Notes: generated by a model not told the origin, from the letters alone. 64,000 bases of DNA from an uncultured Rikenellaceae bacterium (GCA_964568875.1 CAZMSH010000004.1:6816-70815), one strand, 5' to 3'. Positions 14,223 to 58,920 are shown, counted from the stretch's first letter. Program-made: numbers and translations.

Positions 14223-14307
14223 TACGGAATGGCGGCGACGCACCCCCCTCAATTGCCTCACAGGCGAATCGAAGCCTGGTCCCGTACCAATGGTCGGCAA
14301 TACGGGG

Positions 14308-15384: not shown

Positions 15385-15438
15385 GGCTTTTATCTGACTA
15401 TTTTTTTATTCGGTTTTACTCAATTTGTTATCGGCCAC

Positions 15439-15459
15439 CGCAACCCGCACCCCGCACCC
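15439..15459. repeat. tandem heptamer array (CGCAACC CGCACCC CGCACCC)
   Basis: Three 7-nt units abutting the SDR stop codon (15463-15465). On the gene's sense strand it reads GGGTGCG GGGTGCG GGTTGCG. It shares the GGGTG core with the other heptamer arrays. Confidence 0.6.
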
Positions 15460-15462
15460 CTC

Positions 15463-16230: not shown

Positions 16231-16333
16231 ACACAAAAAGTTTTTTTCAGTCCAAAAATAACCAACTTCCCCTAATCTCGGCATAACTGTTACGTCTCAT
16301 TTTGTTTCAGAACCTATTTACCGTATAACTGCT

Positions 16334-16341
16334 TATATTTG
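16334..16341 (+). promoter_or_regulatory. Bacteroidota -7 promoter box TATATTTG
   Basis: TAnnTTTG match 22 nt upstream of the ubiE ATG. Confidence 0.45.
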
Positions 16342-16362
16342 TCGTCTTGATTTAACAACTGA

Positions 16363-17088
16363 ATGCAGACCGCCCGAAAGAGAGAAGAAATATCGGAAAT
16401 GTTCGACCGCATAGCGTGGCGGTACGATTTTCTCAATCATTTTCTTTCGCTGGGAACCGATATCTGGTGGAGAAGGAGAGCCGTTGCCGCGATAGGAAGA
16501 ATGAAGAAACCGGAGCGTATTCTCGATGTTGCAACAGGAACAGCCGACCTTGCCATAGCAGCCCTGAGGCTCGGGGAGGTTAAGGTTACAGGCGTTGACA
16601 TATCGCAGAAAATGCTGCTCGAGGGCAGAAAGAAGATAGAAAGGAAGGGACTCACAGACAGGATAGAACTTGTAGCAGCCGCCTCGGAAGAGCTACCCTT
16701 TCCCGATGCTACCTTTGACGTTGCCATGTCGGCATTCGGCGTGAGGAATTTTGCTGACACTGCCACCGGCCTTTCTGAGATGTACAGGGTACTCTCAGAT
16801 GGCGGAGTTATAATGGTTCTGGAGTTTTCAAAGCCTGCGAGGTTCCCGCTCAGACAGATTTACGGATTCTATTTCAAGAGGTTGCTGCCTCTGCTGGGAC
16901 GACTTTTCTCGCGTGACAGTTCGGCCTATACCTACCTTCCCGACTCTGTAGGTTCCTTCCCCGAAGGGGAGGCGTTCCTGAGCCTTCTCGGTGCAGCCGG
17001 CTTTGGTTCCACCGAAATGAAAAGACTCAGCGGTGGCATTGCAACGATATATACCGGCATTAAGGCAACAATTACAATAAACAGTTAA
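16363..17088 (+). CDS. ubiE: demethylmenaquinone / ubiquinone C-methyltransferase
   Basis: 241 aa. FDRIAWRYDFLNHxLSLGxDxWWR and the SAM motif VLDVATGTADLA. Confidence 0.9.
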   Translation: MQTARKREEISEMFDRIAWRYDFLNHFLSLGTDIWWRRRAVAAIGRMKKPERILDVATGTADLAIAALRLGEVKVTGVDISQKMLLEGRKKIERKGLTDRIELVAAASEELPFPDATFDVAMSAFGVRNFADTATGLSEMYRVLSDGGVIMVLEFSKPARFPLRQIYGFYFKRLLPLLGRLFSRDSSAYTYLPDSVGSFPEGEAFLSLLGAAGFGSTEMKRLSGGIATIYTGIKATITINS

Positions 17089-17123
17089 ATTTGAAGTTTA
17101 TTATTTTCAGGAAAAACTCTTAA

Positions 17124-17834
17124 ATGAGATCAGGATACAAGATATTTACGGCTATTCTTTTGCTGCTTCCGCTGGCGGCATATTCACAGAGACAGAAGGT
17201 GAAGAATGATTCGTGGTATGATGAAAAATTGTTTCACTTCGGATTTTGTGTCGGGTTCAATGCAATGGATTTCAGGGTAACGCCTTCACAGAGCGCCTTT
17301 GCTGCCGATTCGTTGTTTCCGGAGGTCACAAATCTCTATCCCGGGTTGAATATCCAGGTTGTAACAGATTACCACCCTGTGCCGTATCTCGATATCAGGT
17401 TTCTGCCAGGCGTTTCATTCGGTCAGAGGAAACTGATATTCTACAGGGATGGCACTGTTTACAATGACGGACAGAGTATTGAATCGTCGTTTCTGGAGTT
17501 TCCGCTGCTGGTAAAGTATAAGGGTACGAGGCTCAACAATGTGCGTCCGTATGTTGTGGGCGGACTCAATTACCGTCATGACCTGGCGGGCAAGAAGGAG
17601 TTTGACGAGGATAAGCCTGTTTACCTTCGCCTCAGGAGATCGGACCTTTACTACGAAGTGGGTGCCGGCTTTGACTTCTACCTTACATTTTTCAAGCTTA
17701 CCATAGAGGCCCGCATGTCGAACGGCCTGAGAAACGTGCTGGTAAATGATCCTGCACCCGGGCATCCTCAGTATGTGAATGCAATTGATAAGATAAGGTC
17801 CCAGATATGGGTTCTTGCATTCTATTTTGAGTGA
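17124..17834 (+). CDS. PorT/SprT-like outer-membrane beta-barrel protein (putative type IX secretion component)
   Basis: 236 aa. Signal peptide, KLFHFGFxVGxN motif, terminal aromatic residue. From memory, the ubiE-porT gene order is conserved in Bacteroidota. Confidence 0.55.
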   Translation: MRSGYKIFTAILLLLPLAAYSQRQKVKNDSWYDEKLFHFGFCVGFNAMDFRVTPSQSAFAADSLFPEVTNLYPGLNIQVVTDYHPVPYLDIRFLPGVSFGQRKLIFYRDGTVYNDGQSIESSFLEFPLLVKYKGTRLNNVRPYVVGGLNYRHDLAGKKEFDEDKPVYLRLRRSDLYYEVGAGFDFYLTFFKLTIEARMSNGLRNVLVNDPAPGHPQYVNAIDKIRSQIWVLAFYFE

Positions 17835-26836: not shown

Positions 26837-27718
26837 ATGAGCAGTAAGGAATCATTTCTTCAGTATTTATCAGGTGAGAAACGCTACTCGCGTCATACGG
26901 TTCGTTCGTATGGTGACGATCTAAGTCAGTTTATTCTTTTCTGTGAGGCCGGGGGCACTGAGTTTGAATCGGGTGATATTAAAGGCCAGCACATAAGGAG
27001 ATGGATTGTCAGTTTGCTTGACAGCGGGGTTTCGGCGTCAAGCGTTCACAGGAAGATATCCTCATTAAGATCTTTTTTCAGGTACCTGCGCAAGGAAGGC
27101 AAAATTAGTACCGATCCTCTTGAGAGGGTTGTTTTGCCGAAGAAGAAGAAGCAGTTACCGGAATTTATCGCTGAACAATCGCTCGACACTCTTCTTGACA
27201 GTTTTGAGTTTGGTTCTGATTTCAGTGGCCGTCGCAATAAAACCGCAATAGAGATGTTGTACCTGACGGGTATGCGCCGTAGTGAGCTTACGGGATTACG
27301 TATTCAGGACTATGATGAAGCAAGGGGAACGATCAGGGTTCACGGAAAACGTAATAAGCAGCGACTTATACCCCTGCTTGATTCATTCAGGTCAGATCTG
27401 AATCTCTATCTTGAGCAGCGCAGGGAGGTTGAATCTGTTGGCGACTGGCTTTTTGTTACTGACAAGGGTAACAAACTGTATGATAAATTTGTTTATAATA
27501 TAGTCAGAAAATATCTTGCTATGGTAACCACGGTCGAAAAGAGGAGTCCGCACGTATTAAGACACAGCTTTGCAACACATATGCTGAATCACGGGGCAGA
27601 CCTCAGTTCGATCAAGGAGTTGCTTGGTCATGCCAATCTTTCAGCGACACAGGTCTATACCCACAATACATTTGAGAAATTAAAGAAAGTATATAAACAG
27701 GCTCATCCAAGAGCGTAA
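26837..27718 (+). CDS. tyrosine recombinase, XerC/XerD family
   Basis: 293 aa. The catalytic residues are present in context (ARGTIRVHGKRNKQR, HVLRHSFATH, LLGHANLSATQVYTH). Confidence 0.85.
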   Translation: MSSKESFLQYLSGEKRYSRHTVRSYGDDLSQFILFCEAGGTEFESGDIKGQHIRRWIVSLLDSGVSASSVHRKISSLRSFFRYLRKEGKISTDPLERVVLPKKKKQLPEFIAEQSLDTLLDSFEFGSDFSGRRNKTAIEMLYLTGMRRSELTGLRIQDYDEARGTIRVHGKRNKQRLIPLLDSFRSDLNLYLEQRREVESVGDWLFVTDKGNKLYDKFVYNIVRKYLAMVTTVEKRSPHVLRHSFATHMLNHGADLSSIKELLGHANLSATQVYTHNTFEKLKKVYKQAHPRA

Positions 27719-49045: not shown

Positions 49046-49996
49046 TTACACCCACTCCTCCTTTATTACGTCGCCATTGATTCCCACGATGGCCATCTTT
49101 ACAGGTACTTTCCTTTGTGCCTTTTCAGCTCCGGCCTTCACAAGCCGCATCAGTCCGCCGCAGCAAGGCACTTCCATCATCATTACCGTTATGGTATTGA
49201 CTTTGGCATCATCTATCAGTGCAGTGATCTTATTTACGTATACCTCCATATTACTGTCGAGCTTCGGGCAGGCGATAGCCACACTCTTGCCCTTCAGGTA
49301 TTTCCCGTGGAAATTGCCGGCGGCAAAAGCAACACAGTCGGCGGCTATCATCAGGTCTGAATTCTGGAAATAACCTGCATTCGGGTTGATAAGGTGCATT
49401 TGCACAGGCCACTGTCTCAGTTCTGAAGGGGCATCTGCAGGAGCTGTGCCGACTGCAAAAGCAATATTGTCTCTTTCAATTGTCATAGCGCGGGAACCGG
49501 GACAACCAGCAGAGTGAGAGTGAGAGTGACCACAACCATGATCATGTCCGTGGCCGTGAGTTATAGCCTGGTGATCGGTTTTGGCGCCGGCAGTAGAACT
49601 GCCAGGTTTGTGCGAACTGATTACCTCCAGCACCTCATCTACTTCGAAGTCTGCTTTCTCCCTGTTGGCAAGCAGAAATTCAATGCCTTCCTTCAGAAAG
49701 CCAAATTCATTGTGGTCTTTAAGATGTTTAAGGTGAGCGATGATTGTGTTTTTCCCCTTTCCGATCATCTCCTCCATGACTGCTTTCTCGTTGTACGGGA
49801 CTGCCTCTCGGGTCTCCATCGTTATAGCTCCTTCAGGGCAGTGTCCGATGCATGCTCCCAGACCGTCACACATCAGATCGCTGATAAGACGAGCCTTCCC
49901 ATCAACAATCTGTAGTGCTCCTTCATGACAATTAGGTATGCAAATACCGCATCCGTTGCACTTCTCTTCATCTATTCTTATTATCTCTCTTTTCAT
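49046..49996 (-). CDS. FrdX-like 2x[4Fe-4S] ferredoxin-domain protein with His-rich linker
   Basis: 316 aa. CNGCGICIPNC and CDGLGACIGHCP motifs, linker HGHGHDHGCGHSHSHS, C-terminal domain with ACPKLD and EVPCCGG. First gene of the hcp operon. Confidence 0.75.
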   Translation of the reverse strand: MKREIIRIDEEKCNGCGICIPNCHEGALQIVDGKARLISDLMCDGLGACIGHCPEGAITMETREAVPYNEKAVMEEMIGKGKNTIIAHLKHLKDHNEFGFLKEGIEFLLANREKADFEVDEVLEVISSHKPGSSTAGAKTDHQAITHGHGHDHGCGHSHSHSAGCPGSRAMTIERDNIAFAVGTAPADAPSELRQWPVQMHLINPNAGYFQNSDLMIAADCVAFAAGNFHGKYLKGKSVAIACPKLDSNMEVYVNKITALIDDAKVNTITVMMMEVPCCGGLMRLVKAGAEKAQRKVPVKMAIVGINGDVIKEEWV

Positions 49997-50056: not shown

Positions 50057-50072
50057 TGTAACAATTGTTACA
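50057..50072. promoter_or_regulatory. perfect 16-bp palindrome TGTAACAATTGTTACA, candidate HcpR (Crp/Fnr) operator
   Basis: Perfect inverted repeat GTAAC-N4-GTTAC in the divergent frdX-hcp / hcpR intergenic region. Its centre is about 40 nt from both inferred transcription starts. Confidence 0.65.
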
Positions 50073-50091: not shown

Positions 50092-50099
50092 TAATTTTG
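50092..50099 (+). promoter_or_regulatory. Bacteroidota -7 promoter box TAATTTTG for hcpR
   Basis: TAnnTTTG match 25 nt upstream of the ATG at 50124. Confidence 0.45.
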
Positions 50100-50123
50100 C
50101 AGGAACCAAAGGATTACAAGATC

Positions 50124-50798
50124 ATGCTGAACTATGAGCTTCTTTCCAGGTCACCTGTATTCAGGGGACTTGATGCCGGAACCACAAGAGAACTACTGGA
50201 GAAGGTTAATTACAGGATCAGAAAGTATACGCCCGGCTCAGTCATTGCCCTAAGTGGAGAGGAGATTACCTCATTGCAGATAGTTGCGTCGGGCCTGGTT
50301 AAGGGGGAAATGGTTGATTATTCGGGAAGAACGTTGAAGATAGAGGATATTGGCGCTCCCAGGGCTCTCGCCCCAGCCTTCCTTTTCGGTTCCAGCAACA
50401 GATATCCTGTTAATGTAACAGCTGTGACAGAGGCCGAAATTCTTACCATCGACAAGCATGATTTTGTAAGATTACTTTGCAGCAGTGACTGCCTTCTTAC
50501 AAATTATCTTGATACCATTTCAAACAGGTCGCAGTTTTTGTCTGAGAAGATCAGGTTCATCGCCTTTAAGACCATAAAGGGTAAGCTGGCTAATTATATT
50601 CTTGCCAAGGCAGGTCAGAATCTCAGAAGCATAAGGTTTGGGCGGTCGCAGCAGGAACTGTCTGATTTTTTTGGTGTTGCAAGGCCATCACTTTCGAGGG
50701 CACTGAGGGAGATGGAAGAAGAGGGAATAATAACTGCGGGTGGTAAGGATATTACGATTCTTAACAGAGATGGGCTTATTGCACTTACAAAACAGTAG
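50124..50798 (+). CDS. hcpR: Crp/Fnr family transcriptional regulator, probable HcpR
   Basis: 224 aa from the ATG at 50124. cNMP-binding-like beta-roll and a C-terminal HTH (SQQELSDFFGVARPSLSRALREM). Divergent from hcp. Confidence 0.72.
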   Translation: MLNYELLSRSPVFRGLDAGTTRELLEKVNYRIRKYTPGSVIALSGEEITSLQIVASGLVKGEMVDYSGRTLKIEDIGAPRALAPAFLFGSSNRYPVNVTAVTEAEILTIDKHDFVRLLCSSDCLLTNYLDTISNRSQFLSEKIRFIAFKTIKGKLANYILAKAGQNLRSIRFGRSQQELSDFFGVARPSLSRALREMEEEGIITAGGKDITILNRDGLIALTKQ

Positions 50799-50803: not shown

Positions 50804-50828
50804 GCATGTAACAAATTTTGTTTCATGC
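50804..50828. promoter_or_regulatory. 25-nt near-palindrome GCATGTAACAAATTTTGTTTCATGC (operator or weak terminator)
   Basis: 10 of 11 arm positions pair. It contains the same TGTAAC half-site as the HcpR box, but with N7 spacing. Lies 6 nt after the hcpR stop and 80 nt before the DRTGG operon. Confidence 0.35.
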
Positions 50829-50907
50829 GGTTTCTCATAGGTAGATCGGTCATAAAACCCTAAATTAGCAGTGAGGATTTGTATTGCAGAAGACTATATA
50901 TAAAAAT

Positions 50908-51252
50908 ATGGTATTAAGTGAAGTAGCAAAGTTGTCAGGTGGCATTGTGATAACCTCTCATTCCAATACCGGAGTGGAGGTTGATTATGCCTTTGCCTCT
51001 GACCTGATGAGTGATGTTCTTACAACCGATATTCACAATCTGTTGCTTATTACAGGGTTGTCAAATCTTCAAACCATTCGTACGGCAGAGATGGCTGATA
51101 TATTCGGAATAGTCCTGGTAAGAGGAAAAAAGGCGACGGAAGAGATGAAGAGACTTGCCAACGAGCATGGTATCGTAATAATAGAAACAGAGTGGTCGAT
51201 GTTCAGGGTATGTGGTGCTCTTACTTCGGCAGGCCTCAAACCGGTTTTCTGA
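50908..51252 (+). CDS. DRTGG-domain protein 1
   Basis: 114 aa from the ATG at 50908 (the ORF-track TTG at 50884 is possible). YAFASDLMSDVL...LLITGLSN. Paralogous to the gene at 52976. Confidence 0.68.
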   Translation: MVLSEVAKLSGGIVITSHSNTGVEVDYAFASDLMSDVLTTDIHNLLLITGLSNLQTIRTAEMADIFGIVLVRGKKATEEMKRLANEHGIVIIETEWSMFRVCGALTSAGLKPVF

Positions 51253-51253
51253 G

Positions 51254-51664
51254 ATGGAGCTGACATACAGGGTAGAGGGGGGAGATTTTGCCGGTGCCGG
51301 CCACTCCTCGAGTGAGGTTAAGAAGGTGCTGAAACAGCTTAACATACCTCCGGAAATCATCAAGAGAATTGTTGTTGCTCTTTACGAAGCTGAGGTTAAC
51401 ATAGTTGCCCATGCCTGGCGCGGGGTTATCATGGTGGAGATTGACACCAGCGGTATAAAATGCATTCTGGAGGATGAGGGGCCGGGTATTCCGGAGATAG
51501 ACAAGGCGATGGAACCCGGATGGACTACGGCTTCGCAGGCTGTAAGGGAGATGGGCTTCGGAGCCGGCATGGGATTACCCAACATAAAAAAGAATACCGA
51601 CAGGCTTGAGATAACAAGTGAAGTAGGCGTTGGCACAAGGGTTGAATTTGAAGTATTGTTATAG
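51254..51664 (+). CDS. RsbW/SpoIIAB-like anti-sigma-type serine kinase (HATPase_c_2 fold)
   Basis: 136 aa from the ATG at 51254, 1 nt after the upstream stop. N-box EAEVNIVAHA, G1 EDEGPGIP, G2 GFGAGMGLPNI. Confidence 0.78.
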   Translation: MELTYRVEGGDFAGAGHSSSEVKKVLKQLNIPPEIIKRIVVALYEAEVNIVAHAWRGVIMVEIDTSGIKCILEDEGPGIPEIDKAMEPGWTTASQAVREMGFGAGMGLPNIKKNTDRLEITSEVGVGTRVEFEVLL

Positions 51665-51666
51665 AT

Positions 51667-52998
51667 ATGGCTAAAGGCGAGTTTTATCATGCCCTGAAGA
51701 TTGAAAGGGATAAATGCATAGGCTGTGTTCATTGCATAAGGGTATGCCCTACACAGGCACTAAGGGTCATTGGTGGTAAAGCCACGCTTTTCGGGAAGAG
51801 GTGTGTTGATTGTGGTGAGTGTCTCAGGGCTTGTCCTGTTAATGCAATTTCAGTCGCTGGTGATGATTTTGAAAAGATATTTGATTACAGAATCAGGATA
51901 GCAATTATTCCGGCGGTTATCTACGGGCAGTTCTCGAAAAAGCATTCGTATCAGAAAATAACAGAGTCATTAAAGAATATAGGGTTCACCCACATATATG
52001 AGGCTGAACGATCGATACCGGTAATAATCAGGAGGTTCAAGTCAATAATTGAGGGCGATGGTCAGCCTAAACCACTTATATCATCTTTTTGTCCTGCCAT
52101 AGTAAGGCTTATACAGGTGCGTTTCCCGTCTCTCACCGGCAATATTGCAGGGGTGAAACCTCCGGTTGACCTGACAGCAATCATGGTCAGGGAACAGTTG
52201 CGTAAAGTAGGATGGGCTGATGAAGAGGTGGGCATCTTTTATGTAACGCCGTGTGCTGCCAAGATAGCCGCTGTCAAGAGCCCGGTGGGAGAGGATATCT
52301 CATATGTTGACGGTGTTATCAATTTAAACAGCCTCTACAACAGGATGTATCCTGAGCTTAAGGCAATGGAGGATGTAAGGCAGAAAAAAAACAGGATGCT
52401 AAGGCCTGAAGAACTGTTGTGGAGCCTCACCAGGGGAGAGTCGGTTCATCAGTCAGGCAGGGTTCTGGCAGTTGATGGGATACAGAATGCCATTGACATA
52501 CTTGAGAAGATAGAAGATGATGAGGTGAGGAATCTTGATTTCCTTGAACTGAGGGCATGCGATGAAGGCTGTGCAGGTGGTGTTCTCAATGTGGAGAATC
52601 GCTTTCTGGCGGTGGAAAGACTTACCCGGAAGGCAAGGATTACAGCCGAGGAAGAGTACCATAAGGATAACTGGTCTGAACATGACTGGTTATTTCTGGA
52701 GAAGAAGTCGGGAATAGGAGAGATAAATCCCAGGTCTATTCTTTCCCTTGATGCAGACTTAAAGGCCGCTTTGGGTAAGATGGACCGTAAAAGAAAGATA
52801 CTCGATATACTTCCTCTGGTTGATTGCGGAGTGTGCGGGTCGCCCGATTGCGATACATTTGCCGAGGATATCATTCAGGGAAGGGCTACCCTGGATAAGT
52901 GTGTCTTTTTCAGCAGAGAAGGGATGGTTTCCACATGGACATCAGATAAGATTAAGGACATAAACAATATACCGGATGAAATTAAAGGAACTGATTGA
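51667..52998 (+). CDS. [FeFe]-hydrogenase H-domain-like protein, sensory type, with N-terminal 2x[4Fe-4S] ferredoxin and C-terminal Cx2Cx4Cx16C Fe-S domain
   Basis: 443 aa. CIGCVHCIRVCP and CVDCGECLRACP motifs. H-cluster signatures SSFCPAI, TPCAAKIAA and ELRACDEGCAGG. C-terminal DCGVCGSPDC...C. Confidence 0.8.
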   Translation: MAKGEFYHALKIERDKCIGCVHCIRVCPTQALRVIGGKATLFGKRCVDCGECLRACPVNAISVAGDDFEKIFDYRIRIAIIPAVIYGQFSKKHSYQKITESLKNIGFTHIYEAERSIPVIIRRFKSIIEGDGQPKPLISSFCPAIVRLIQVRFPSLTGNIAGVKPPVDLTAIMVREQLRKVGWADEEVGIFYVTPCAAKIAAVKSPVGEDISYVDGVINLNSLYNRMYPELKAMEDVRQKKNRMLRPEELLWSLTRGESVHQSGRVLAVDGIQNAIDILEKIEDDEVRNLDFLELRACDEGCAGGVLNVENRFLAVERLTRKARITAEEEYHKDNWSEHDWLFLEKKSGIGEINPRSILSLDADLKAALGKMDRKRKILDILPLVDCGVCGSPDCDTFAEDIIQGRATLDKCVFFSREGMVSTWTSDKIKDINNIPDEIKGTD

Positions 52999-53311
52999 AA
53001 GTGCCGGCCTTGAAATAATTACAGGCGGAACAGGGCTTGACAGGGACGTAACAGGTGGTTATACATCTGATCTGCTTAGTGATGTGATGGGTAACTCACG
53101 CGAGGGCCAGGTATGGATCACAATGCAGACACATATGAATGTTATTGCTGTTGCAACTCTCAAGGAGCATGCAGCAGTGATATTTGTCTCTGGCAACAGA
53201 CCGGCTGCTGATGTGGCAGAGAAGGCAGTTGCCGAGGATTTGACACTGCTTGCCACAAACGATGAGGCCTTTACCATATCGGGCAAGATATATTCACTAT
53301 TAGGGAAATAA
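52976..53311 (+). CDS. DRTGG-domain protein 2
   Basis: 111 aa containing the literal DRDVTGG followed by YTSDLLSDVM. The start overlaps the upstream gene by 23 nt in another frame. Confidence 0.75.
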   Translation: MKLKELIESAGLEIITGGTGLDRDVTGGYTSDLLSDVMGNSREGQVWITMQTHMNVIAVATLKEHAAVIFVSGNRPAADVAEKAVAEDLTLLATNDEAFTISGKIYSLLGK

Positions 53312-53314
53312 GTT

Positions 53315-54052
53315 ATGAGAGTATACCGGGCCGACCTGCATACGCATACCGTTTTGTCTCCTTGCGGTGATCTGGAGATGAGTGCCCGGAATATTATAGA
53401 TGCTGCTCACGCCAAAGAGATTGATATCCTTGGAATAACTGACCATAACTCCACCCTTAACTCTCAGATGATAAAGGAAATGGGTGAGGATGAGGGTTTG
53501 TTGGTATTGACAGGAGCTGAGGTTACCACAAGGGAAGAGATTCACTGTTTATGTTTTCTCGAGAACCGTGATGAGCTTGAAGAGTTCCAGGCATGGATCG
53601 AAGACAATATCACACGTATACCCAATTCACCTCAGAGATTTGGTTATCAGGTCGTAGTAGACAGTGAAGATAACATTATCGATGAGGTGGAGTATCTTCT
53701 GATAATGTCACTTTCAAAAACGATAGATGAGGTTGAGAGGAAAGTTCATGAATTAAACGGATTGTTTATCCCTGCCCATGTAGACAGATCTGTAAACAGT
53801 ATTCTGAGTCAGCTGGGTTTTTTCCCACCCGGCTTGAAGTATGATGCTGTTGAGGTTACCCCATACACTGAATTTGAGACTTTAAGCAAGAATCACCCTG
53901 TAATTGGTAATCTCCCGTACATAAGAAGTTCTGATTCTCACTTCCTGCATAATGTTGGCAAGGTAAGTACCGGTTTATTGCTGAACGAATTGTCATTTTC
54001 TGAGATAAGAATGGCACTTGCCGGGGAAGGAGGAAGAAAGGTCGTGCACTGA
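53315..54052 (+). CDS. PHP-domain metal-dependent phosphoesterase
   Basis: 245 aa. DLHTHTVLSPCG, ITDHNS, PAHVDR and SSDSH metal-ligand motifs. Confidence 0.85.
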   Translation: MRVYRADLHTHTVLSPCGDLEMSARNIIDAAHAKEIDILGITDHNSTLNSQMIKEMGEDEGLLVLTGAEVTTREEIHCLCFLENRDELEEFQAWIEDNITRIPNSPQRFGYQVVVDSEDNIIDEVEYLLIMSLSKTIDEVERKVHELNGLFIPAHVDRSVNSILSQLGFFPPGLKYDAVEVTPYTEFETLSKNHPVIGNLPYIRSSDSHFLHNVGKVSTGLLLNELSFSEIRMALAGEGGRKVVH

Positions 54053-54603
54053 TGAAAACAATTACCGACCATATTGTTGACATTATGCAAAACTCTACCA
54101 GGGCAGGCGCTACTGAAGTAAGACTATCTGTCAGTATAGACCCTGAATCGGGGTATATCTCTTTTGAGGTTGCTGATAATGGCAGGGGAATTCCAAATGA
54201 TATTATAGACCGGGTTGCTGATCCGTTCACCACCTCAAGGAAGACAAGAAAGGTTGGTTTGGGCCTTCCGTTGCTAAGACAGCATGCTTCGATGTCAGGA
54301 GGCAGTCTTGAGATAAAATCGGAAGAGGGAGCCGGTACAATTGTAAAAGCGGTATTTGGTTACGAAAGCATTGACCGTCAGCCTCTTGGTGGTTTAGGTG
54401 AGGCTGTCGCCCTCTTCATAACAGGAAATCCCGGTGTAAACCTTATCTTCAGCTACTCTTCCCCTGCGGGGAGCTATGCGGTCTCTTCAGTGGAGATATC
54501 AGAAAGTCTTGATGGCGATGATCTGGGCAGACCTGTCTGGTTTGCAGTTATCAGGGAGATGATTAATGATAATCTTATAGAACTGGGGTCAGGAAACGTT
54601 TGA
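54052..54603 (+). CDS. stand-alone GHKL (histidine-kinase-like) ATPase without DHp domain
   Basis: 183 aa. N-box MQNSTRAGA, G1 ADNGRGIP, G2 GLGLPLL. The start ATG shares one base with the upstream TGA (ctgATGa). Confidence 0.75.
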   Translation: MKTITDHIVDIMQNSTRAGATEVRLSVSIDPESGYISFEVADNGRGIPNDIIDRVADPFTTSRKTRKVGLGLPLLRQHASMSGGSLEIKSEEGAGTIVKAVFGYESIDRQPLGGLGEAVALFITGNPGVNLIFSYSSPAGSYAVSSVEISESLDGDDLGRPVWFAVIREMINDNLIELGSGNV

Positions 54604-54620: not shown

Positions 54621-56705
54621 CTAATCCTGATCCGTTATTGATGATGGAAGTATAATTGTGAAACAGGTACCATCACCGGGCTTGCTTTCCAGTTCAATCC
54701 TGCCCTTGTTGACCTTAACAAGTTCTCCTACCAGCTTGAGACCAAATCCGGTACCCTTTTCATTTTCTGTGCCGGGTGTACTCTCAATATCTCCTGGTGA
54801 GAAGAGAATCGCCTGTCTTTCAGGAGGTATACCTATACCATTATCGCATATCTTTATCATAACCTCACTTTCCGGTTTGGGCTTTTCCTTAAGCAGTATA
54901 CTTATCCTCCCTCCCTTGCGGGTGTATTTTATTGCATTTGACAGCAGATTCCTGATAATAATATCAATGAGCTCCTTGTCTACCCAGGCTTTGGTTCCTC
55001 CAATCTGCGTAAAATTGACGGCTATACTCTTTCTGTCTGCATTATCCTTGTAAATACTCATATTGGTAAGGATAATACCGGCAAGGTCGTGCAGTTCCGG
55101 TGCATATCTTATATGGTCCTCCTGCCCCCTTCCCCATACCAGCATGTTTTCAAGCAGGTTGATAACCATCTGTGAATAGTTGATGCACGAACCTGCAAGT
55201 GATTCATATTTGTCGCGGTATTCATCTTCTTTCAACAGGTTAAGTATATACTGGATGTTTACAACAGGGCTCCTCAGATCATGTGCGATCACCGAGAATA
55301 TTTTGTTTTTAAGCTGAATTGTTTCGGTGAGGTTTTTGTTTTGTTCCTCTATCTGCCTGCTGTATTCGACAGCCTTGTTCTTGGTTCTGGTGAGTTCCCT
55401 CGTTCGCGAGTGGATCATCGATTCAAGATCTCTGTTGAGCTGTTCGAGGTTGTTCTTGAGTCTCTCCTTTTCGCGGAATGAGCTTACCCACTGATATATC
55501 AGAAGGCCTGACTGTATGCACACAAAAATAATTATTGATTCTGACAGGATATATCCTCCCTGACCGGTTACGTTCACAATAGCCAGCACAATATCATGAA
55601 TAGCGGCTGACACAATCAGCAGGAAGCCTCCGAAATAGATGGCATCGGGTAACTGACGGTTTTTTATGAATCTTATAGCGCTGCTTGTCAGAGAGTTAAT
55701 TGCGAATAACACCACAAAGATGTATACTGGGAATGTGAAATATGAAAAACTCTTCACCGGGAGAACAACTGTTGCTGCTGTCAGCGATATGAAGAATACG
55801 ACAGAGACATTGGCAAAAACTTTGTGAAACTGGTATTTATAGATCTCACTCAGGAACAGGAATGCTCCTGTGACCATAATATAAAGGCTCAGATATTCAA
55901 ATCTCACTGTCCATTCCCATGACATATCAACAACTGTATATATCAGAAACTGGTTTGTGAAAAGAGGTCTGAGGCCCATTCCCAGGAGCGTGACTGCAAA
56001 ATAGAGAGATGTTTTGTCTTCGCGGTATAGCAAAAAGAAAAATGCAAAGAAGAGAGTAAAGGCTGCAAGTATGCTTACTGTAGCAATTGACCCGCCATAT
56101 TGCAATGAAGCCACTGATTGAATGTGGCTGAATGAACCAAATTCCACCGGGAGCCAGAAACCGCCTCTTCGGTGATGGAAGTTGGATACGTTGAGAATAA
56201 TTTCAATGGTATCTTTTTCTGGAACAAACCTCATGATTGTAGGTTCGTATGCCGGCACAGTAGTCTCCTCTGAAACTCCCGGCACTCCGTTGCCTGCTGT
56301 GAATTTTCCGTCAACATACAGGTCGTAGGATGAATCAAAGACCTTTAGCATCAGGCCAAGCGCCGGAAGATCGGTCTTAGGAAGAACTATTCTGAGTCTG
56401 TATGTTGCATAGCCATCACCTGTTGTTTTGATTCCCGGGAGGTCAGCGTCGGTCCAGTATGAGGGAACTTTGATATAACCGTCAGGTCTGGGTGATGTGT
56501 GACCTGAAAAGTTATGAGGCCTCAGGAGTTTGTTCCAGTAGAACTCCCATTCGCCGTTAAGGCTTATTCTGTACTTTTCAGTTATGGTTTCGCCGCTCAG
56601 ATCGAGGATTCCCTTAACGGGTTGAGGTACTGATTCTGATGAAAACACTGAAAGGCTGATGATAAAGCTCAGCAGTACCGGTGAAATCAGTTTAACAATC
56701 TTCAT
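54621..56705 (-). CDS. 7TMR-DISM sensor histidine kinase
   Basis: About 694 aa from the ATG at 56705. Signal peptide, extracellular LDLSG...W.FYWN (7TMR-DISMED2-like) domain, 7 TM helices, coiled coil. H-box FSVIAHDLRSP, N-box NLLSNAIKYT, G1 DNGIGIP, G2 GTGFGL. Confidence 0.85.
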   Translation of the reverse strand: MKIVKLISPVLLSFIISLSVFSSESVPQPVKGILDLSGETITEKYRISLNGEWEFYWNKLLRPHNFSGHTSPRPDGYIKVPSYWTDADLPGIKTTGDGYATYRLRIVLPKTDLPALGLMLKVFDSSYDLYVDGKFTAGNGVPGVSEETTVPAYEPTIMRFVPEKDTIEIILNVSNFHHRRGGFWLPVEFGSFSHIQSVASLQYGGSIATVSILAAFTLFFAFFFLLYREDKTSLYFAVTLLGMGLRPLFTNQFLIYTVVDMSWEWTVRFEYLSLYIMVTGAFLFLSEIYKYQFHKVFANVSVVFFISLTAATVVLPVKSFSYFTFPVYIFVVLFAINSLTSSAIRFIKNRQLPDAIYFGGFLLIVSAAIHDIVLAIVNVTGQGGYILSESIIIFVCIQSGLLIYQWVSSFREKERLKNNLEQLNRDLESMIHSRTRELTRTKNKAVEYSRQIEEQNKNLTETIQLKNKIFSVIAHDLRSPVVNIQYILNLLKEDEYRDKYESLAGSCINYSQMVINLLENMLVWGRGQEDHIRYAPELHDLAGIILTNMSIYKDNADRKSIAVNFTQIGGTKAWVDKELIDIIIRNLLSNAIKYTRKGGRISILLKEKPKPESEVMIKICDNGIGIPPERQAILFSPGDIESTPGTENEKGTGFGLKLVGELVKVNKGRIELESKPGDGTCFTIILPSSITDQD

Positions 56706-56814
56706 TAATGGAGAAGGTTTGCGGAAAAATAGAAATAAATGCCGATAATAAAAACTCCCGCTAAAGTTTGTTATCAACCGTTGCGGGAGTTTTATTAATA
56801 AGCATATAGACTGT

Positions 56815-58920
56815 TTATTCAATCAGTCCTTTGTTCTTAAGGAGGGCTTCAATTCCGGGCTCTTTACCCCTGAAGTTTATGTACAGCTCTCTTGCTTCTG
56901 CACTACCTCCCTTTGAAAGTATTTCTCTTTCAAACGCTGCTGCGATCTCTTTATTGAAGATATCACCGGTTTCGCGGAAGGCCTGAAATGCGTCAGCATC
57001 AAGCTGTTCACTCCAGTAGTAGCTGTAATAACCTGATGAATATCCCCCTGAGAAGATGTGGCTGAAATATGTTGATCTGTAACGTGGAATTATTTCATCT
57101 ATCAGACCATACTTTTTCATTGCATTTGCTTCAAATTCCTGGGCATCAATTTCGACAGGGATCCTGAGCGCGTGATACTCCATATCAAGGAGTGCTGCTG
57201 CCACGAACTCCGTTGTTACGAAACCCGTGTTGAACTTACCTGCCCGGTCAAGCTTGTCAATTAGTTCCTGGGGCAGAAGTTCTCCTGTCTGATAATGTTT
57301 TGCATATACTTTAAGTACTTCCGGCTCAAGAACCCAGTGTTCCATTATCTGTGAAGGCAGTTCTACGAAGTCCCGTGGTACTGATGTTCCTGATATACTG
57401 GGGAATGTCATATTAGATAACAACTGGTGGAGGGCATGGCCGAATTCATGAAACAAGGTACTTGCTTCATCGGCTGTCAGCAGTGATGGTTTATCGCCGG
57501 CTGGTGGTGTGAAATTACACAGAATTGATACGATAGGGGTTACCATATTACCCGAGGTATCTCTTTTCTGGCTCCTGAAGGTGCTGCATGATGCTCCTCC
57601 TGTCTTACTTGCCCGGGGAAAGTTGTCGAGGTAAAGAATACCGATATGATCTCCTCTGCGTGTGACTTCATATACCCTTGCTTCAGGATGGTATGTAGGC
57701 AGATCGGTCCTTTCCTTAAACTCGAGGTCGTACAGCCGGTTAGCAACATAGAACATGCCGCTGGTTACATTGTCAATTTCAAAGTAGGGTCTGAGTTGCT
57801 CATCGTCAAGGTCATACTTCTCCTTCTTTATCTTCTCGGTATAATACCACCAGTCCCAGGGCTGAAGAACAAAGTCTCCACCTTCTCTCTTTATCATATC
57901 ATTCTGGGCTTTGGCTTCAGCTTTTGCTACAGGTATTGCAGCGTCCCAGACCTGAACGAGAAAGTCGAAAACTGTCTCAGGATTGGCGGCCATGTTGTTT
58001 TCAAGTACAAATGCAGCGTGACTGTCATAGCCCAGAAGATTTGCCCTTTGGACCCTCAGGCGGGCAATGTCGGCTACAATGTTGTTATTGTCAAATTCAT
58101 TGCCGTTATTACCTCTTGCCTCATAAGCCTTGAATATCTTTTCCCTCAGATCACGCTTTTCAGAATACTGGAGGAAGGGCCATATGCTCGGGGCGTGAAG
58201 GGTAAAAATCCATTTCCCATCCATGCCTGCATTCTTTGCTGCAGTTGATGCCTGATTTATCAGGTTTGCCGGTAATCCTGCCAGATCGGCCTCTTCTTCA
58301 ATAACCAGACTGAAGTTATTGGTTTCGGCAAGAACATTCTGCCCGAATTTTAAGGAGAGCATTGAGAGTTCCTCGTTAACTTTTCTCAGCTTTTCCTTGT
58401 CTTCTTCTGAGAGAGCTGCACCACTACGGATGAAGTTCCTGTGCCTCAGTTCAAGAATCCTCTTCTCTTCAGCATTAAGGTTAAACTTATCCTGGTTATC
58501 ATATACGCTTTTAATCCTCTCAAACAGCTTCTCATTCAGGTTGATATCGTCGCTATGTTTACTTTGCAGGGGTGAAAGTTCACGACTTATTGCCTGTAGC
58601 TCGTCACTTGTAATTGCAGAGTTGAGCCTGTAAAATACAGGCCTTACTTTGTTAAGGATTCCACCACTGTATTCAAGTGGCAGAATGGTATTTTCAAAGG
58701 TTGGCTCCTCGGAATTATTAACTATAGCTTCGACCTCTTTCATCTGTTCCTCAAAACCTTTGATGAAAGCAGGCATATAATGCTCTGTTTTTATCTGATC
58801 AAAGGGAGGAATGCCAAATGGGGTTTTCCATTCGGCCAGGAAAGGATTCTCAGGCTCTTTCTCTTTGCAGGCCGTCATGCCTGCCAGAATCGCAAATAAC
58901 ATTATAATGATTTTTTTCAT
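56815..58920 (-). CDS. dcp: M3 family peptidyl-dipeptidase
   Basis: About 701 aa from the ATG at 58920. Lipoprotein-type signal (AGMTAC) and the zinc motif HEFGHALH. Confidence 0.88.
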   Translation of the reverse strand: MKKIIIMLFAILAGMTACKEKEPENPFLAEWKTPFGIPPFDQIKTEHYMPAFIKGFEEQMKEVEAIVNNSEEPTFENTILPLEYSGGILNKVRPVFYRLNSAITSDELQAISRELSPLQSKHSDDINLNEKLFERIKSVYDNQDKFNLNAEEKRILELRHRNFIRSGAALSEEDKEKLRKVNEELSMLSLKFGQNVLAETNNFSLVIEEEADLAGLPANLINQASTAAKNAGMDGKWIFTLHAPSIWPFLQYSEKRDLREKIFKAYEARGNNGNEFDNNNIVADIARLRVQRANLLGYDSHAAFVLENNMAANPETVFDFLVQVWDAAIPVAKAEAKAQNDMIKREGGDFVLQPWDWWYYTEKIKKEKYDLDDEQLRPYFEIDNVTSGMFYVANRLYDLEFKERTDLPTYHPEARVYEVTRRGDHIGILYLDNFPRASKTGGASCSTFRSQKRDTSGNMVTPIVSILCNFTPPAGDKPSLLTADEASTLFHEFGHALHQLLSNMTFPSISGTSVPRDFVELPSQIMEHWVLEPEVLKVYAKHYQTGELLPQELIDKLDRAGKFNTGFVTTEFVAAALLDMEYHALRIPVEIDAQEFEANAMKKYGLIDEIIPRYRSTYFSHIFSGGYSSGYYSYYWSEQLDADAFQAFRETGDIFNKEIAAAFEREILSKGGSAEARELYINFRGKEPGIEALLKNKGLIE

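What the first reader, a model, noticed from the sequence alone, without database searches (positions are those of the whole stretch)
50908..54603. Orphan six-gene [FeFe]-hydrogenase-like sensory/signalling operon (DRTGG, RsbW-like kinase, HydS-like, DRTGG, PHP, GHKL ATPase)
Six same-strand genes are packed with junctions of +1, +2, -23, +3 and -1 nt (51252/51254, 51664/51667, 52976 inside 52998, 53311/53315, shared base at 54052). That packing indicates one translationally coupled unit.

Products read directly from the translations:
- Two paralogous small DRTGG-type proteins sharing G(Y/F)xSDL(M/L)SDV(L/M). The second carries a literal DRDVTGG.
- An RsbW/SpoIIAB-type serine-kinase fold. No STAS partner or sigma factor is present anywhere in the window.
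- A ferredoxin-fused [FeFe]-hydrogenase H-domain protein.
- A PHP metal-dependent phosphoesterase.
- A second stand-alone GHKL ATPase that lacks a DHp/His-phosphotransfer domain.

The window contains no structural hydrogenase partner (NuoE/NuoF-like HydB/C), no hydEFG maturase and no DNA-binding output. The neighbours are the NO-stress hcp/hcpR locus and a 7TMR-DISM kinase.

From memory, similar gene sets precede bifurcating-hydrogenase operons in Thermotogae and Firmicutes, and to my knowledge they have not been functionally dissected. A free-standing copy in a Bacteroidota core-genome context suggests an autonomous gas/redox (H2, possibly NO, CO or O2) sensing phospho-signalling system. Who phosphorylates whom, what the DRTGG proteins do and what the output is are all unknown.
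Basis: partly seen in the sequence, partly recalled or inferred. Interest (0 to 1): 0.85.

Follow-up and report, generated by a model that had tools for sequence, protein, structure and literature searches.

The report
Hydrogen-sensor gene cassette without its hydrogenase
This is an intact copy of a widespread but mechanistically unsolved six-gene cassette built around a putative hydrogen-sensing [FeFe] hydrogenase; it is unusual only in that, in this Bacteroidales lineage, it sits apart from the hydrogenase operon it normally precedes.

Summary
The six tightly packed + strand genes exist exactly as described, and every domain call holds: DRTGG-a, SpoIIAB-like GHKL, HydS-like hydrogenase, DRTGG-b, PHP, and a histidine-kinase-type ATPase without a DHp domain.

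The central protein is a Group D [FeFe] hydrogenase (M2e; HydDB "C1, histidine-kinase-linked"), the family of TamHydS. That family is studied biophysically and is called "putative sensory".

The cassette is not rare in Bacteroidota. At least 587 species genomes encode a relative. In the 80 closest loci, all Bacteroidales, the gene order is nearly universal.

In 52 of 56 informative loci an Hnd/HydABC-type bifurcating hydrogenase follows directly. The window belongs to a clade (down to about 58% HydS identity) where that operon is missing locally. There the cassette lies downstream of an HcpR2-type regulator. All six genes are under strong purifying selection (dN/dS 0.03-0.17).

New evidence on mechanism: natural fusions join HydS to DRTGG-a, to the SpoIIAB-like GHKL and to DRTGG-b. 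This argues for one physical complex, with DRTGG in the place that PAS occupies in Group C sensors.

Who phosphorylates whom, and what the output is, remain unknown. Whether hydABC or hydEFG lie elsewhere in the genome could not be checked.

Verdict: real; a new member of a known, unsolved kind; moderate interest.

The parts
50908..51252 (+). p1, DRTGG-a: stand-alone DRTGG-fold protein (114 aa) with an invariant S31-D-L-x-S35-D-V-L motif and invariant R58, R72 and K74
   Evidence: ORF. Pfam DRTGG E 8.5e-4, below cut-off. Paralogous to p4, hhalign 99.4%. Invariant residues from alignment A4. Found fused to the N-terminus of HydS in P0428 and P0443.
51254..51664 (+). p2, GHKL-a: single-domain SpoIIAB/RsbW-like ATP-binding protein (136 aa)
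   Evidence: HATPase_c_2 1e-9. TIGR01925 1.9e-15, below cut-off. SpoIIAB structures 1TID/1TIL E 8e-6. N-box E45/E47/N49/H53, G1 D74-G76-G78 and G2 G101-F-G-A-G-x-G are invariant in 35 sequences. Found fused to the HydS N-terminus in P0432.
51667..52998 (+). p3, HydS-like Group D (M2e / HydDB C1) [FeFe] hydrogenase (443 aa): two N-terminal [4Fe-4S] motifs, an H-domain and a C-terminal Cx2Cx4Cx16C motif
   Evidence: Pfam. Alignment to a solved [FeFe] hydrogenase (9rkm) maps C142, C196, C298 and C302 onto the four H-cluster cysteines; Phe141 replaces the proton-relay Cys, Thr194 replaces Met353 and Arg296 replaces Met497. These residues are invariant or nearly invariant in 30 homologues. Family features taken from PMC8163306 and PMC13104023.
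52976..53311 (+). p4, DRTGG-b: stand-alone DRTGG-fold protein (111 aa) with invariant Y29, S31-D-L-L-S35-D-V and W47-x-T-x-Q-T-H53-x-N55; overlaps p3 by 23 nt
   Evidence: AF2 pLDDT 96.5. Foldseek 2IOJ TM 0.82, 3L31 0.75, 1KO7 0.73. Homologues carry PF07085, PF02603 or PF07905. Found fused to the HydS C-terminus in seven representative clusters.
53315..54052 (+). p5, PHP-family metal-dependent phosphoesterase (245 aa)
   Evidence: Pfam PHP 30.1 bits against a 26.4-bit cut-off. Invariant D7, H9, H11, D43, H44, E69, H155, D207 and H209, plus C17 and H77-C78. Nearest solved sequences are EndoQ (E 3e-5, C-terminal half). NCBIfam hits to the TrlF and Ppl N-terminal PHP domains are below cut-off.
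54052..54603 (+). p6, GHKL-b: histidine-kinase-type catalytic (CA) domain without DHp/HisKA, plus a conserved alpha/beta C-terminal domain of about 80 aa (183 aa in total)
   Evidence: HATPase_c 4.4e-17. Profile against PDB: KinB 3D36 3.8e-16. Invariant N14, D42-G44-G46, G69-G71, G95-T96, D108 and G113. AF2 pLDDT 89.5. Foldseek matches HK CA domains over about 110 columns and MutL/PMS2/Topo VI-B N-terminal halves over about 180-215 columns at TM about 0.5.
50861..50887 (+). Conserved A/T-rich boxes in the hcpR-p1 spacer (TAAATTAG at 50861-50868, ATTTGTATTGC at 50877-50887); possible own promoter of the cassette (inferred)
   Evidence: TAAATTAG is kept in the window, L081 and L083, and with one change (TTAATTAA) in L085. 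The second box is homologous to TATATTTGTATTGC in L092; L093 carries TATATTTGTTAC, and both hold the motif TAnnTTTG. That TAnnTTTG is the Bacteroidetes -7 promoter consensus is my own knowledge. No terminator-like site lies between hcpR and p1.

Best explanation
The locus is a complete, functional copy of the Group D (M2e, HydDB C1) putative sensory [FeFe]-hydrogenase cassette.

Proposed mechanism, with the status of each step:
1. HydS (p3) binds an H-cluster and reacts with H2 slowly but with high affinity. This is shown for the family member TamHydS and inferred here from the conserved ligands.
2. HydS forms one complex with DRTGG-a, the SpoIIAB-like ATPase/kinase p2 and DRTGG-b. This is inferred from natural fusions and conserved tight gene packing. 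DRTGG-b, attached next to the C-terminal [4Fe-4S] domain, plays the transducer role that the fused PAS domain plays in Group C HydS (inferred).
3. The H2/redox state of HydS changes which partner p2 binds, and possibly whether p2 phosphorylates a DRTGG protein. This would be a partner-switching logic. The gene order DRTGG-a, kinase, HydS is parallel to spoIIAA, spoIIAB, sigF. This step is inferred and untested.
4. The translationally coupled pair p5 (PHP phosphoesterase) and p6 (DHp-less kinase-type ATPase) resets or relays the signal (inferred).
5. In nearly all Bacteroidales the cassette is the 5' part of an operon-like cluster with an Hnd/HydABC bifurcating hydrogenase, which is the presumed target (the arrangement is shown; the target role is inferred). 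In the window's clade that operon is not adjacent. The cassette then most likely acts in trans on hydrogen or redox metabolism encoded elsewhere (inferred).
For: Identity of p3:
- Domain architecture.
- Four H-cluster cysteines kept; the proton-relay Cys is replaced by Phe and Met353 by Thr.
- Cx2Cx4Cx16C motif present and no PAS domain. These are the M2e hallmarks in PMC8163306.
- D386-C387 and E400-D401 correspond to TamHydS D378-C379 and E392-D393, which are conserved across Group D (PMC13104023).

Cassette conservation:
- Same order in 70 of 80 loci.
- Median gaps of -4 to +9.5 nt.
- Hnd/HydABC follows in 52 of 56 loci.

Physical coupling: among the 150 best 50%-identity representatives of the family there are 2 DRTGG-a::HydS, 1 GHKL-a::HydS and 7 HydS::DRTGG-b fusion proteins. 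In each case the fused domain matches the expected paralogue best. A HATPase_c fusion was reported independently in Hydrogenedentota (PMC11406978).

Competence of the parts:
- ATP-binding boxes are invariant in p2 and p6.
- PHP metal ligands are invariant.
- The invariant polar residues of p4 sit on two neighbouring strand-to-helix loops of a Rossmann-like fold.

Functionality in the orphan clade:
- dN/dS is 0.03-0.17 with saturated dS against four relatives.
- All family-invariant residues are retained in the window proteins.
Against: - No experiment on any accessory protein was found.
- No phospho-acceptor is identified. The SDLxSDV motif lies where Rossmann-like folds bind ligands, so it may be a binding site rather than a phosphorylation site.
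- p2 scores far below the SpoIIAB and RsbW equivalog cut-offs, and there is no STAS protein or sigma factor in the cassette.
- The nearest relatives of p5 by sequence are nucleases or nucleotide phosphatases (EndoQ, TrlF/Ppl PHP domains, RNase RNM), not protein phosphatases.
- The whole-chain fold matches of p6 include MutL and Topo VI-B type ATPase clamps, which are not kinases.
- For TamHydS the C-terminal cluster is not reduced by H2, and a sensing role remains 'putative' (PMC13104023).
- The cassette has no DNA-binding domain, so the output is unknown.
- It is unknown whether this genome has hydEFG. Without it the H-cluster cannot be made.
Confidence: 0.5

Rival explanations
1. Assembly, activation or protection factors rather than a signalling system. 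The two GHKL ATPases, the PHP hydrolase and the DRTGG proteins would form an ATP-driven machine. With the hydrogenase-like protein as scaffold or redox gauge, it would assemble, reactivate or gate the bifurcating Hnd/HydABC enzyme post-translationally.
For: - In canonical loci the six genes are followed by the hnd structural genes on the same strand; in L046 the gap is about 60 nt. This fits accessory subunits better than a classical regulator.
- The cassette has no DNA-binding protein.
- The p6 model also resembles GHKL-plus-transducer ATPase clamps such as MutL and Topo VI-B.
- PHP enzymes are general phosphoesterases.
Against: - The cassette is kept under purifying selection in a clade where no hydrogenase is adjacent.
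- Purified bifurcating HydABC complexes with solved structures contain no such subunits. This rests on my own knowledge; PDB entries 8A6T and 7P5H appear only as HydA chains.
- The GHKL core of p6 is closest to histidine-kinase CA domains (E 3.8e-16), while MutL scores about 1e-5.
Confidence: 0.15
2. Rewired to nitrosative stress. In this clade the cassette would belong to the HcpR2 regulon by read-through from hcpR. It would sense NO, CO or redox state, or modulate HcpR, rather than report H2 for a hydrogenase.
For: - The order hcp, Fer4/AF_0155, divergent HcpR2 box, hcpR, cassette is kept in every relative examined, down to 58-60% HydS identity. The downstream 7TMR-DISM kinase gene comes and goes.
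- The box TGTAACAATTGTTACA (50057-50072) matches the published HcpR2 consensus GTAACnnnnGTTAC (PMC1274295) and is conserved.
- There is no terminator-like site between hcpR and p1.
Against: - There is no conserved HcpR box in front of p1. The near-palindrome at about 50808-50830 is specific to the window.
- Promoter-like boxes are conserved in the spacer, which suggests a separate transcript.
- The adjacency can be explained by vertical inheritance of synteny, because the peptidase M3 and oadA genes are conserved too.
- The window HydS shows no sequence departure from canonical Group D at the H-cluster ligands.
Confidence: 0.12
3. A low-rate catalytic hydrogenase. p3 would oxidise H2 and pass electrons through its ferredoxin-like clusters to the neighbouring Fer4/AF_0155 protein and Hcp.
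For: - TamHydS does catalyse H+/H2 interconversion (PMC8163306).
- An Fe-S protein and hcp lie 1-3 kb away.
Against: - The proton-relay Cys is missing (Phe141) and family rates are low.
- Five signalling-type partners are co-conserved with p3.
- The hcp operon is on the other strand with its own HcpR box.
- The same cassette, in canonical loci, sits beside a true catalytic hydrogenase.
Confidence: 0.05
4. A decaying remnant left after loss of the adjacent hydrogenase operon, or alternatively a PHP-nuclease/GHKL defence module.
For: - The hydrogenase operon is absent locally.
- p5 gives weak PADLOC hits to Ppl and PDC-M49A (E about 1e-6 to 3e-7).
Against: - dN/dS is 0.03-0.17, reading frames are intact across at least six lineages and all invariant residues are kept.
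- PADLOC hits only the generic PHP domain of one protein, and the other five proteins give nothing.
- The cassette is always built around HydS.
Confidence: 0.04

Closest known systems
TamHydS, Group D (M2e; HydDB [FeFe] Group C1 'histidine-kinase-linked') putative sensory hydrogenase of Thermoanaerobacter mathranii
   Same: - Same architecture: two N-terminal [4Fe-4S] motifs, an H-domain and a C-terminal Cx2Cx4Cx16C motif, with no PAS domain.
- The proton-relay Cys is absent and Met353 is replaced by a hydroxyl residue.
- A histidine-kinase-like ATPase gene flanks it (PMC8163306).
   Different: - TamHydS is encoded upstream of a trimeric bifurcating hydrogenase; the window copy is not.
- Position 497 is Arg here and Leu in TamHydS.
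- No biochemical data exist for the Bacteroidales proteins.
Canonical Bacteroidales cassette, e.g. Petrimonas mucosa ING2E5A_0849 followed by hnd genes 0853-0856, and loci L002-L080 (Carboxylicivirga, Ancylomarina, Butyricimonas and others)
   Same: Identical six genes in identical order with similar tight spacing. Identity is 45-51% for HydS and 34-71% for the partners (PMC7768429).
   Different: These loci continue directly into HndB-HndC-HndD-HndA (52 of 56). They often also have a second trimeric hydrogenase upstream (28 of 63). L015, the one such locus checked in detail, additionally carries a HydS-like protein plus a PP2C pair upstream. The window's clade has hcpR upstream and unrelated genes downstream.
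Group C (M2f) sensory hydrogenases: TmHydS, R. albus HydS, T. saccharolyticum HfsB
   Same: An H-domain lacking the proton-relay Cys, a C-terminal four-Cys cluster, and linkage to bifurcating hydrogenases and to kinase or phosphatase genes (PMC8163306, PMC8924675).
   Different: Group C carries a fused PAS domain and is usually paired with a PP2C phosphatase or a histidine kinase. Here there is no PAS domain. DRTGG proteins are encoded separately, or fused in some relatives, and a PHP hydrolase replaces PP2C.
SpoIIAA-SpoIIAB-sigma F and RsbV-RsbW-sigma B partner switching
   Same: A single-domain GHKL protein with intact ATP-binding boxes, encoded directly after a small alpha/beta protein and before its presumed binding target.
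   Different: The small partner has a DRTGG fold, not STAS. The downstream gene is a hydrogenase-like protein, not a sigma factor. The phosphatase candidate is PHP, not PP2C. Scores are far below the equivalog cut-offs. No phosphorylation has been shown.
Regulatory [NiFe] hydrogenase HoxBC with HoxJ kinase and HoxA regulator (Cupriavidus necator)
   Same: Same concept: a slow, inhibitor-tolerant hydrogenase acts as an H2 sensor that controls a kinase. The comparison is made in PMC8163306.
   Different: Unrelated metal site and proteins. HoxJ has PAS and DHp domains, and HoxA is a DNA-binding response regulator. No equivalent DNA-binding output exists in this cassette.

Membership tests
[FeFe] hydrogenase Group D (M2e / HydDB C1) | [quoted passage not shown] | tested here: met
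   CIGCVHCIRVCP and CVDCGECLRACP are present. Fer4 family hits. All eight Cys are invariant in 30 sequences.
[FeFe] hydrogenase Group D (M2e / HydDB C1) | H-domain with the four H-cluster cysteines | tested here: met
   Fe_hyd_lg_C 90.6 bits. C142, C196, C298 and C302 align to the ligand cysteines of a solved [FeFe] hydrogenase and are invariant.
[FeFe] hydrogenase Group D (M2e / HydDB C1) | Proton-relay Cys (CpI C299) absent; Met353 replaced by Ser or Thr | tested here: met
   The motifs read SSF141-C142-P and T194-P-C196. Criterion taken from PMC8163306.
[FeFe] hydrogenase Group D (M2e / HydDB C1) | C-terminal Cx2Cx4Cx16C motif and no PAS domain | tested here: met
   C387-x2-C390-x4-C395-x16-C412. 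PF04060 2.8e-11. No PAS hit, and the protein ends at residue 443.
[FeFe] hydrogenase Group D (M2e / HydDB C1) | Gene located beside a Group A (bifurcating) hydrogenase. The literature says 'often', so this is typical rather than strictly defining. | tested here: not met
   There is no HydA/B/C-like gene in the window or in the checked flanks. The feature is met in 52 of 56 related loci.
[FeFe] hydrogenase Group D (M2e / HydDB C1) | Binds a mature H-cluster and reacts with H2 | not testable with these tools
   This needs hydEFG in the genome (not visible) and biochemical work.
DRTGG domain (PF07085) for p1 and p4 | Sequence match above the Pfam gathering score | tested here: inconclusive
   19.6 and 18.7 bits against 25.2. 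Homologues and fused relatives pass, for example P0428 at 36.1 bits.
DRTGG domain (PF07085) for p1 and p4 | DRTGG / HprK-N type alpha/beta fold | tested here: met
   For p4: AF2 pLDDT 96.5, with 2IOJ TM 0.82, 3L31 TM 0.75 and 1KO7 TM 0.73. For p1 by paralogy, hhalign 99.4%.
SpoIIAB/RsbW anti-sigma serine kinases (p2) | Single GHKL domain with N, G1 and G2 boxes | tested here: met
SpoIIAB/RsbW anti-sigma serine kinases (p2) | Equivalog-level similarity, a STAS antagonist and a cognate sigma factor in the operon | tested here: not met
   TIGR01925 scores 57 bits against 135, and RsbW 19.8 against 145. There is no STAS or sigma gene among the six, nor in the 80 related cassettes.
Two-component sensor histidine kinase (p6) | Catalytic ATP-binding (CA) domain | tested here: met
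   HATPase_c 63 bits. KinB 3D36 E 3.8e-16.
Two-component sensor histidine kinase (p6) | DHp/HisKA domain with a phospho-accepting His, and a cognate response regulator | tested here: not met
   No HisKA hit. The protein starts with the CA domain. The C-terminal 80 aa form an alpha/beta domain, not a helical hairpin. There is no receiver-domain gene in the cassette.
PHP phosphoesterase (p5) | PHP fold signature with the His/Asp/Glu metal ligands | tested here: met
   30.1 bits against 26.4. H9, H11, D43/H44, E69, H155 and D207/H209 are invariant.
PHP phosphoesterase (p5) | Substrate class (phosphoprotein, nucleotide or nucleic acid) | not testable with these tools
   Sequence neighbours are EndoQ, TrlF/Ppl PHP domains, RNase RNM and pAp phosphatase, all weak.

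The most novel reading that the evidence does not exclude
In this Bacteroidales clade the H2-sensor cassette has been uncoupled from any hydrogenase operon and wired to the HcpR2/hcp nitrosative-stress locus, by read-through from hcpR or by protein-level cross-talk. A hydrogenase-derived gas sensor would then control, or be controlled by, the NO response. More generally, DRTGG would be a previously unrecognised signal-output domain of metallo-gas sensors that works with a PHP/GHKL pair instead of the PAS/PP2C pair.
Probability: 0.13. Interest if true: 0.8.

Novelty: new member of a known kind. Interest (0 to 1): 0.5.

Why it matters
How putative sensory [FeFe] hydrogenases pass on their signal is an open question. 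The papers on TamHydS say so explicitly, and they looked only at the hydrogenase itself.

This locus, with its relatives, points to the partners that should be studied. Two DRTGG proteins and a SpoIIAB-like ATPase are fused to HydS in some organisms. A PHP/ATPase pair is translationally coupled to them.

A clade in which the cassette survives under purifying selection without an adjacent hydrogenase offers a natural test. It can show whether the cassette acts in cis on the neighbouring operon or in trans as a general H2/redox signal.

Bifurcating hydrogenases set H2 output in guts, sediments and digesters, so their control matters. The window itself adds no unique part that thousands of other loci lack.

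Tried and rejected
- An HcpR box in front of the cassette. The window has a 23-nt near-palindrome (CATGTAACAAATTTTGTTTCATG, about 50808-50830). It is not conserved in L081, L083, L085, L092 or L093, and its half-site spacing differs from the HcpR2 box. Rejected as a regulatory link.
- Intrinsic terminators and sigma-70 promoters. The scan gave nothing above the shuffled expectation. Sigma-70 consensus is also not appropriate for Bacteroidota.
- Defence-system reading. PADLOC hit only the generic PHP domain of p5 and nothing else.
- Sequence-only identification of DRTGG against the PDB was marginal (E 0.001-0.06). Structure prediction settled it.
It was rebuilt from database hits.
- Literature searches on DRTGG + hydrogenase, PHP + bifurcating + histidine kinase, Group C1 + histidine kinase, and sensory hydrogenase + anti-sigma found no functional study of the accessory genes. 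The corpus lacks many subscription papers, for example Calusinska 2010 and Poudel 2016.
- Whole-genome check for hydABC and hydEFG was not possible.
- The census beyond Bacteroidales could not be done at locus level. The 80 loci returned were the closest ones, all Bacteroidota.

Full report
**Observation**

The ORF list shows six + strand ORFs at 50908-51252, 51254-51664, 51667-52998, 52976-53311, 53315-54052 and 54052-54603.

Pfam and NCBIfam confirm each family.
- p1 and p4 give weak DRTGG hits, below the gathering score.
- p2 is HATPase_c_2 and SpoIIAB-like.
- p3 has two Fer4 motifs, Fe_hyd_lg_C and the PF04060 four-Cys motif.
- p5 is PHP.
- p6 is a histidine-kinase-type HATPase_c without HisKA.

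The weak DRTGG calls were settled by other means.
- The two families are paralogous (hhalign 99.4%).
- Homologues of p4 carry PF07085, PF02603 or PF07905.
- An AlphaFold2 model of p4 (pLDDT 96.5) superposes on the DRTGG protein AF1212 (TM 0.82). It also superposes on the DRTGG domain of a CBS-pyrophosphatase and on the N-domain of HPr kinase.

The neighbours are as stated: hcp, a Fer4/AF_0155 protein, a Crp-family regulator, and a convergent 7TMR-DISM kinase.

**What the central protein is**

Alignment to solved [FeFe] hydrogenases maps C142, C196, C298 and C302 onto the four H-cluster ligands. The proton-relay cysteine is Phe141, Met353 is Thr194 and Met497 is Arg296. All of these are invariant or nearly so in 30 homologues.

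The C-terminus carries C387-x2-C390-x4-C395-x16-C412 and there is no PAS domain. These are the published hallmarks of the M2e subclass, also called Group D (PMC8163306). Charged residues reported as conserved around the C-terminal cluster (D378, E392 and D393 in TamHydS) have counterparts here at D386, E400 and D401 (PMC13104023).

HydDB calls the same proteins [FeFe] Group C1, 'histidine-kinase-linked' (PMC7768429 and PMC11406978). The protein therefore belongs to a named family. One member, TamHydS, has been studied biophysically and is regarded as a putative H2 sensor with an unknown transduction route.

**How common the cassette is, and what lies next to it**

- The protein search found more than 4090 relatives at E < 1e-10. 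The best hits were all Bacteroidales.
- A profile search of 1.84 billion 50%-identity representatives found 574 clusters at E <= 1e-30.
- The scan of one genome per species found at least 587 genomes with a relative. The 80 closest loci are all Bacteroidota.

In those 80 loci the order p1-p2-p3-p4-p5-p6 is nearly universal, and 70 loci have all six genes. Median gaps are -4 to +9.5 nt.

In 52 of the 56 loci with at least 4.5 kb downstream, gene 6 is followed directly by four genes:
- a small 132-aa protein;
- a NuoF-like HydB/HndC;
- a Group A HydA/HndD with Fer2_4, NADH-G and the small-subunit domain;
- a NuoE-like subunit.

In 28 of 63 loci a further trimeric hydrogenase lies upstream. In Carboxylicivirga marina there is also a 627-aa HydS-like protein with a SpoIIE/PP2C partner.

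The rule is the same as in Firmicutes, where the sensor cassette sits in front of a bifurcating hydrogenase.

**The window's clade is a real exception**

Contigs carrying HydS proteins 75-88% identical (L081-L085), 71% identical (L001) and the window's own organism (L086-L091) show the same context. That context is hcp, Fer4/AF_0155, hcpR, the cassette, a convergent 7TMR-DISM kinase, peptidase M3 and oadA.

At 58-60% identity (L092, L093) the hcpR-cassette adjacency and the M3/oadA genes persist, but the 7TMR-DISM kinase is absent. That kinase is therefore not an obligate partner.

No HydA/B/C-like gene and no radical-SAM maturase-like gene was found in the 64-kb window. None was found in about 6 kb beyond the left edge or 10 kb beyond the right edge.

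Nei-Gojobori estimates against four relatives give dN/dS of 0.03-0.17 for all six genes, with saturated dS. Every family-invariant residue is retained. The cassette is maintained by selection and the separation is old.

One other independent orphan (L049) and two loci with only an upstream hydrogenase (L010, L036) occur among the 56. Group C1 genes away from A3 hydrogenases were also mentioned for Hydrogenedentota, with contig-length caveats.

**Link to hcpR**

The divergent region between the Fer4-hcp operon and hcpR holds TGTAACAATTGTTACA (50057-50072). This matches the published HcpR2 consensus GTAACnnnnGTTAC (PMC1274295) and is conserved in all relatives.

In front of p1 there is no conserved HcpR box. 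What is conserved are A/T-rich boxes: TAAATTAG, and ATTTGTATTGC, which reads TATATTTG... in L092 and L093. These resemble the Bacteroidetes -7 promoter element TAnnTTTG, a consensus I cite from my own knowledge.

No terminator-like site separates hcpR and p1. A separate promoter is the more likely reading, but read-through cannot be excluded.

**Evidence on mechanism**

The most informative new result is a set of natural fusions. Ten of the 150 best family representatives are longer than about 510 aa and carry an extra domain. Scored with HMMs built from the six families, they resolve as follows:
- P0428 and P0443: DRTGG-a::HydS.
- P0432: GHKL-a::HydS.
- P0385, P0396, P0454, P0455, P0469, P0490 and P0511: HydS::DRTGG-b.

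In each case the fused domain matches the paralogue expected from gene order. A HATPase_c fusion was reported independently. This is Rosetta-stone evidence that HydS, both DRTGG proteins and the SpoIIAB-like ATPase form one complex. It also places DRTGG-b at the C-terminal cluster domain, where Group C sensors carry PAS.

Other observations on the parts:
- Both GHKL proteins keep invariant N, G1 and G2 boxes.
- The PHP protein keeps its full metal-ligand set, plus conserved C17 and H77-C78.
- The invariant polar residues of p4 (S31, D32, S35, D36, T49, Q51, H53, N55) fall on two adjacent strand-to-helix loops of the model. This is the usual ligand-binding edge of such folds. They may form a binding pocket rather than a phospho-acceptor site.
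- p5 and p6 overlap by 1-4 nt in most loci, which suggests a coupled pair.

**Working model and its weak points**

The working model is as follows. HydS senses H2. The complex with p1, p2 and p4 changes ATP-dependent partner binding or phosphorylation, with a gene order parallel to spoIIAA-spoIIAB-sigF. PHP and GHKL-b reset or relay the signal. The usual target is the adjacent Hnd/HydABC. In this clade the target lies elsewhere.

The weak points are these:
- There are no experiments on any accessory protein.
- p2 is far below the SpoIIAB/RsbW cut-offs and has no STAS or sigma partner.
- The nearest sequence relatives of p5 are nucleases and nucleotide phosphatases (EndoQ, TrlF/Ppl PHP domains).
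- The whole-chain fold matches of p6 include MutL and Topo VI-B type clamps at TM about 0.5.
- There is no DNA-binding output.
- For TamHydS the C-terminal cluster does not respond to H2.

Rival readings are scored in the report sections. They are an ATP-driven assembly or activation machine for the hydrogenase, rewiring to the HcpR regulon, a low-rate catalytic hydrogenase, and a relic or defence module.

**Comparison, novelty and score**

The locus is a member of the Group D/C1 putative sensory hydrogenase cassette. It meets all sequence-level defining features except adjacency to a Group A hydrogenase. It works like, but is not a member of, SpoIIAB-type partner-switching systems or two-component systems, because defining features of both were tested and not met.

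His impression that a Bacteroidota copy is unusual and autonomous is only partly right. The cassette is common there and usually hydrogenase-linked. The local orphan state is real and conserved in a clade, but its meaning depends on the unseen rest of the genome.

I rate it a new member of a known, mechanistically unsolved kind, with moderate interest (0.5). Its value lies in the comparative leads, namely the fusions, DRTGG as transducer and a natural uncoupled clade, rather than in anything unique to this window.

Noticed in passing
window 50057-50072 (between 49996 and the hcpR start at about 50097-50130): A perfect palindrome TGTAACAATTGTTACA sits in the divergent promoter region between the Fer4/AF_0155-hcp operon and the Crp-family regulator. 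It matches the published HcpR2 consensus GTAACnnnnGTTAC and is conserved in L081, L083, L085, L092 and L093.
   Followed up: yes
window 49046-49996 (- strand): A 316-aa protein with an N-terminal 2x[4Fe-4S] ferredoxin domain, a His-rich stretch (HGHGHDHGCGHSHSH) and an AF_0155-family C-terminal part. It is always encoded between hcp and hcpR in this clade and is probably the redox partner of Hcp.
   Followed up: partly
window 54621-56822 (- strand), compared with L092 and L093: The convergent 7TMR-DISM histidine kinase ends 18 nt after the cassette and overlaps the peptidase M3 gene by 8 nt. Pfam finds 7TMR-DISM_7TM and HATPase_c but no HisKA. The gene is present in the window, L081, L083, L085 and L001 but absent at the same position in L092 and L093, so it is not tied to the cassette.
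   Followed up: partly
P0428, P0443, P0432, P0385, P0396, P0454, P0455, P0469, P0490, P0511 (database representatives): Natural fusion proteins join Group D HydS to DRTGG-a (N-terminal), to the SpoIIAB-like GHKL (N-terminal) or to DRTGG-b (C-terminal). I found no mention of DRTGG fusions in the searched literature.
   Followed up: yes
L015 (Carboxylicivirga marina) 2065-17715: A hydrogenase 'super-locus' on one strand. In order: NuoE, a short NuoF and HydA; a 2Fe-2S protein; a 627-aa HydS-like protein with a SpoIIE/PP2C phosphatase; the six-gene Group D cassette; and HndB-C-D-A. This means two different putative sensory hydrogenases flanked by two catalytic ones.
   Followed up: partly
window 53315-54052 (p5) residues C17 and H77-C78: Besides the PHP metal ligands, one Cys in the motif LSPCGDLEM and a His-Cys pair are invariant in 34 sequences. 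They could form an extra metal site or a redox-sensitive site. The best PDB sequence match of the C-terminal half is the PHP nuclease EndoQ.
   Followed up: no
window 54052-54603 (p6) residues about 105-183: A conserved C-terminal alpha/beta domain (invariant D108 and G113 in IDRQPLGD) has no Pfam match. In the AF2 model the whole chain aligns to GHKL-plus-transducer ATPases (MutL, PMS2, Topo VI-B) at TM about 0.5. That hints at an ATPase-clamp rather than a kinase architecture.
   Followed up: partly
window about 50808-50830: A 23-nt near-perfect palindrome CATGTAACAAATTTTGTTTCATG lies just after the hcpR stop codon. It shares the TGTAAC half-site with the HcpR box, has different spacing, and is not conserved in relatives.
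   Followed up: yes
window 26837-27718 (+): A tyrosine recombinase (Phage_integrase plus SAM-like N-domain) is encoded just upstream of the tuf-nusG-rpl-rpoBC core cluster. It may be XerC/D-like or may mark an integrated element.
   Followed up: no
L083 11682-12421 compared with L084: In one contig of a close relative the PHP gene is split into 98-aa and 116-aa ORFs. A second contig carrying the identical HydS has the PHP gene intact. This is probably an assembly or sequencing frameshift rather than a pseudogene.
   Followed up: partly
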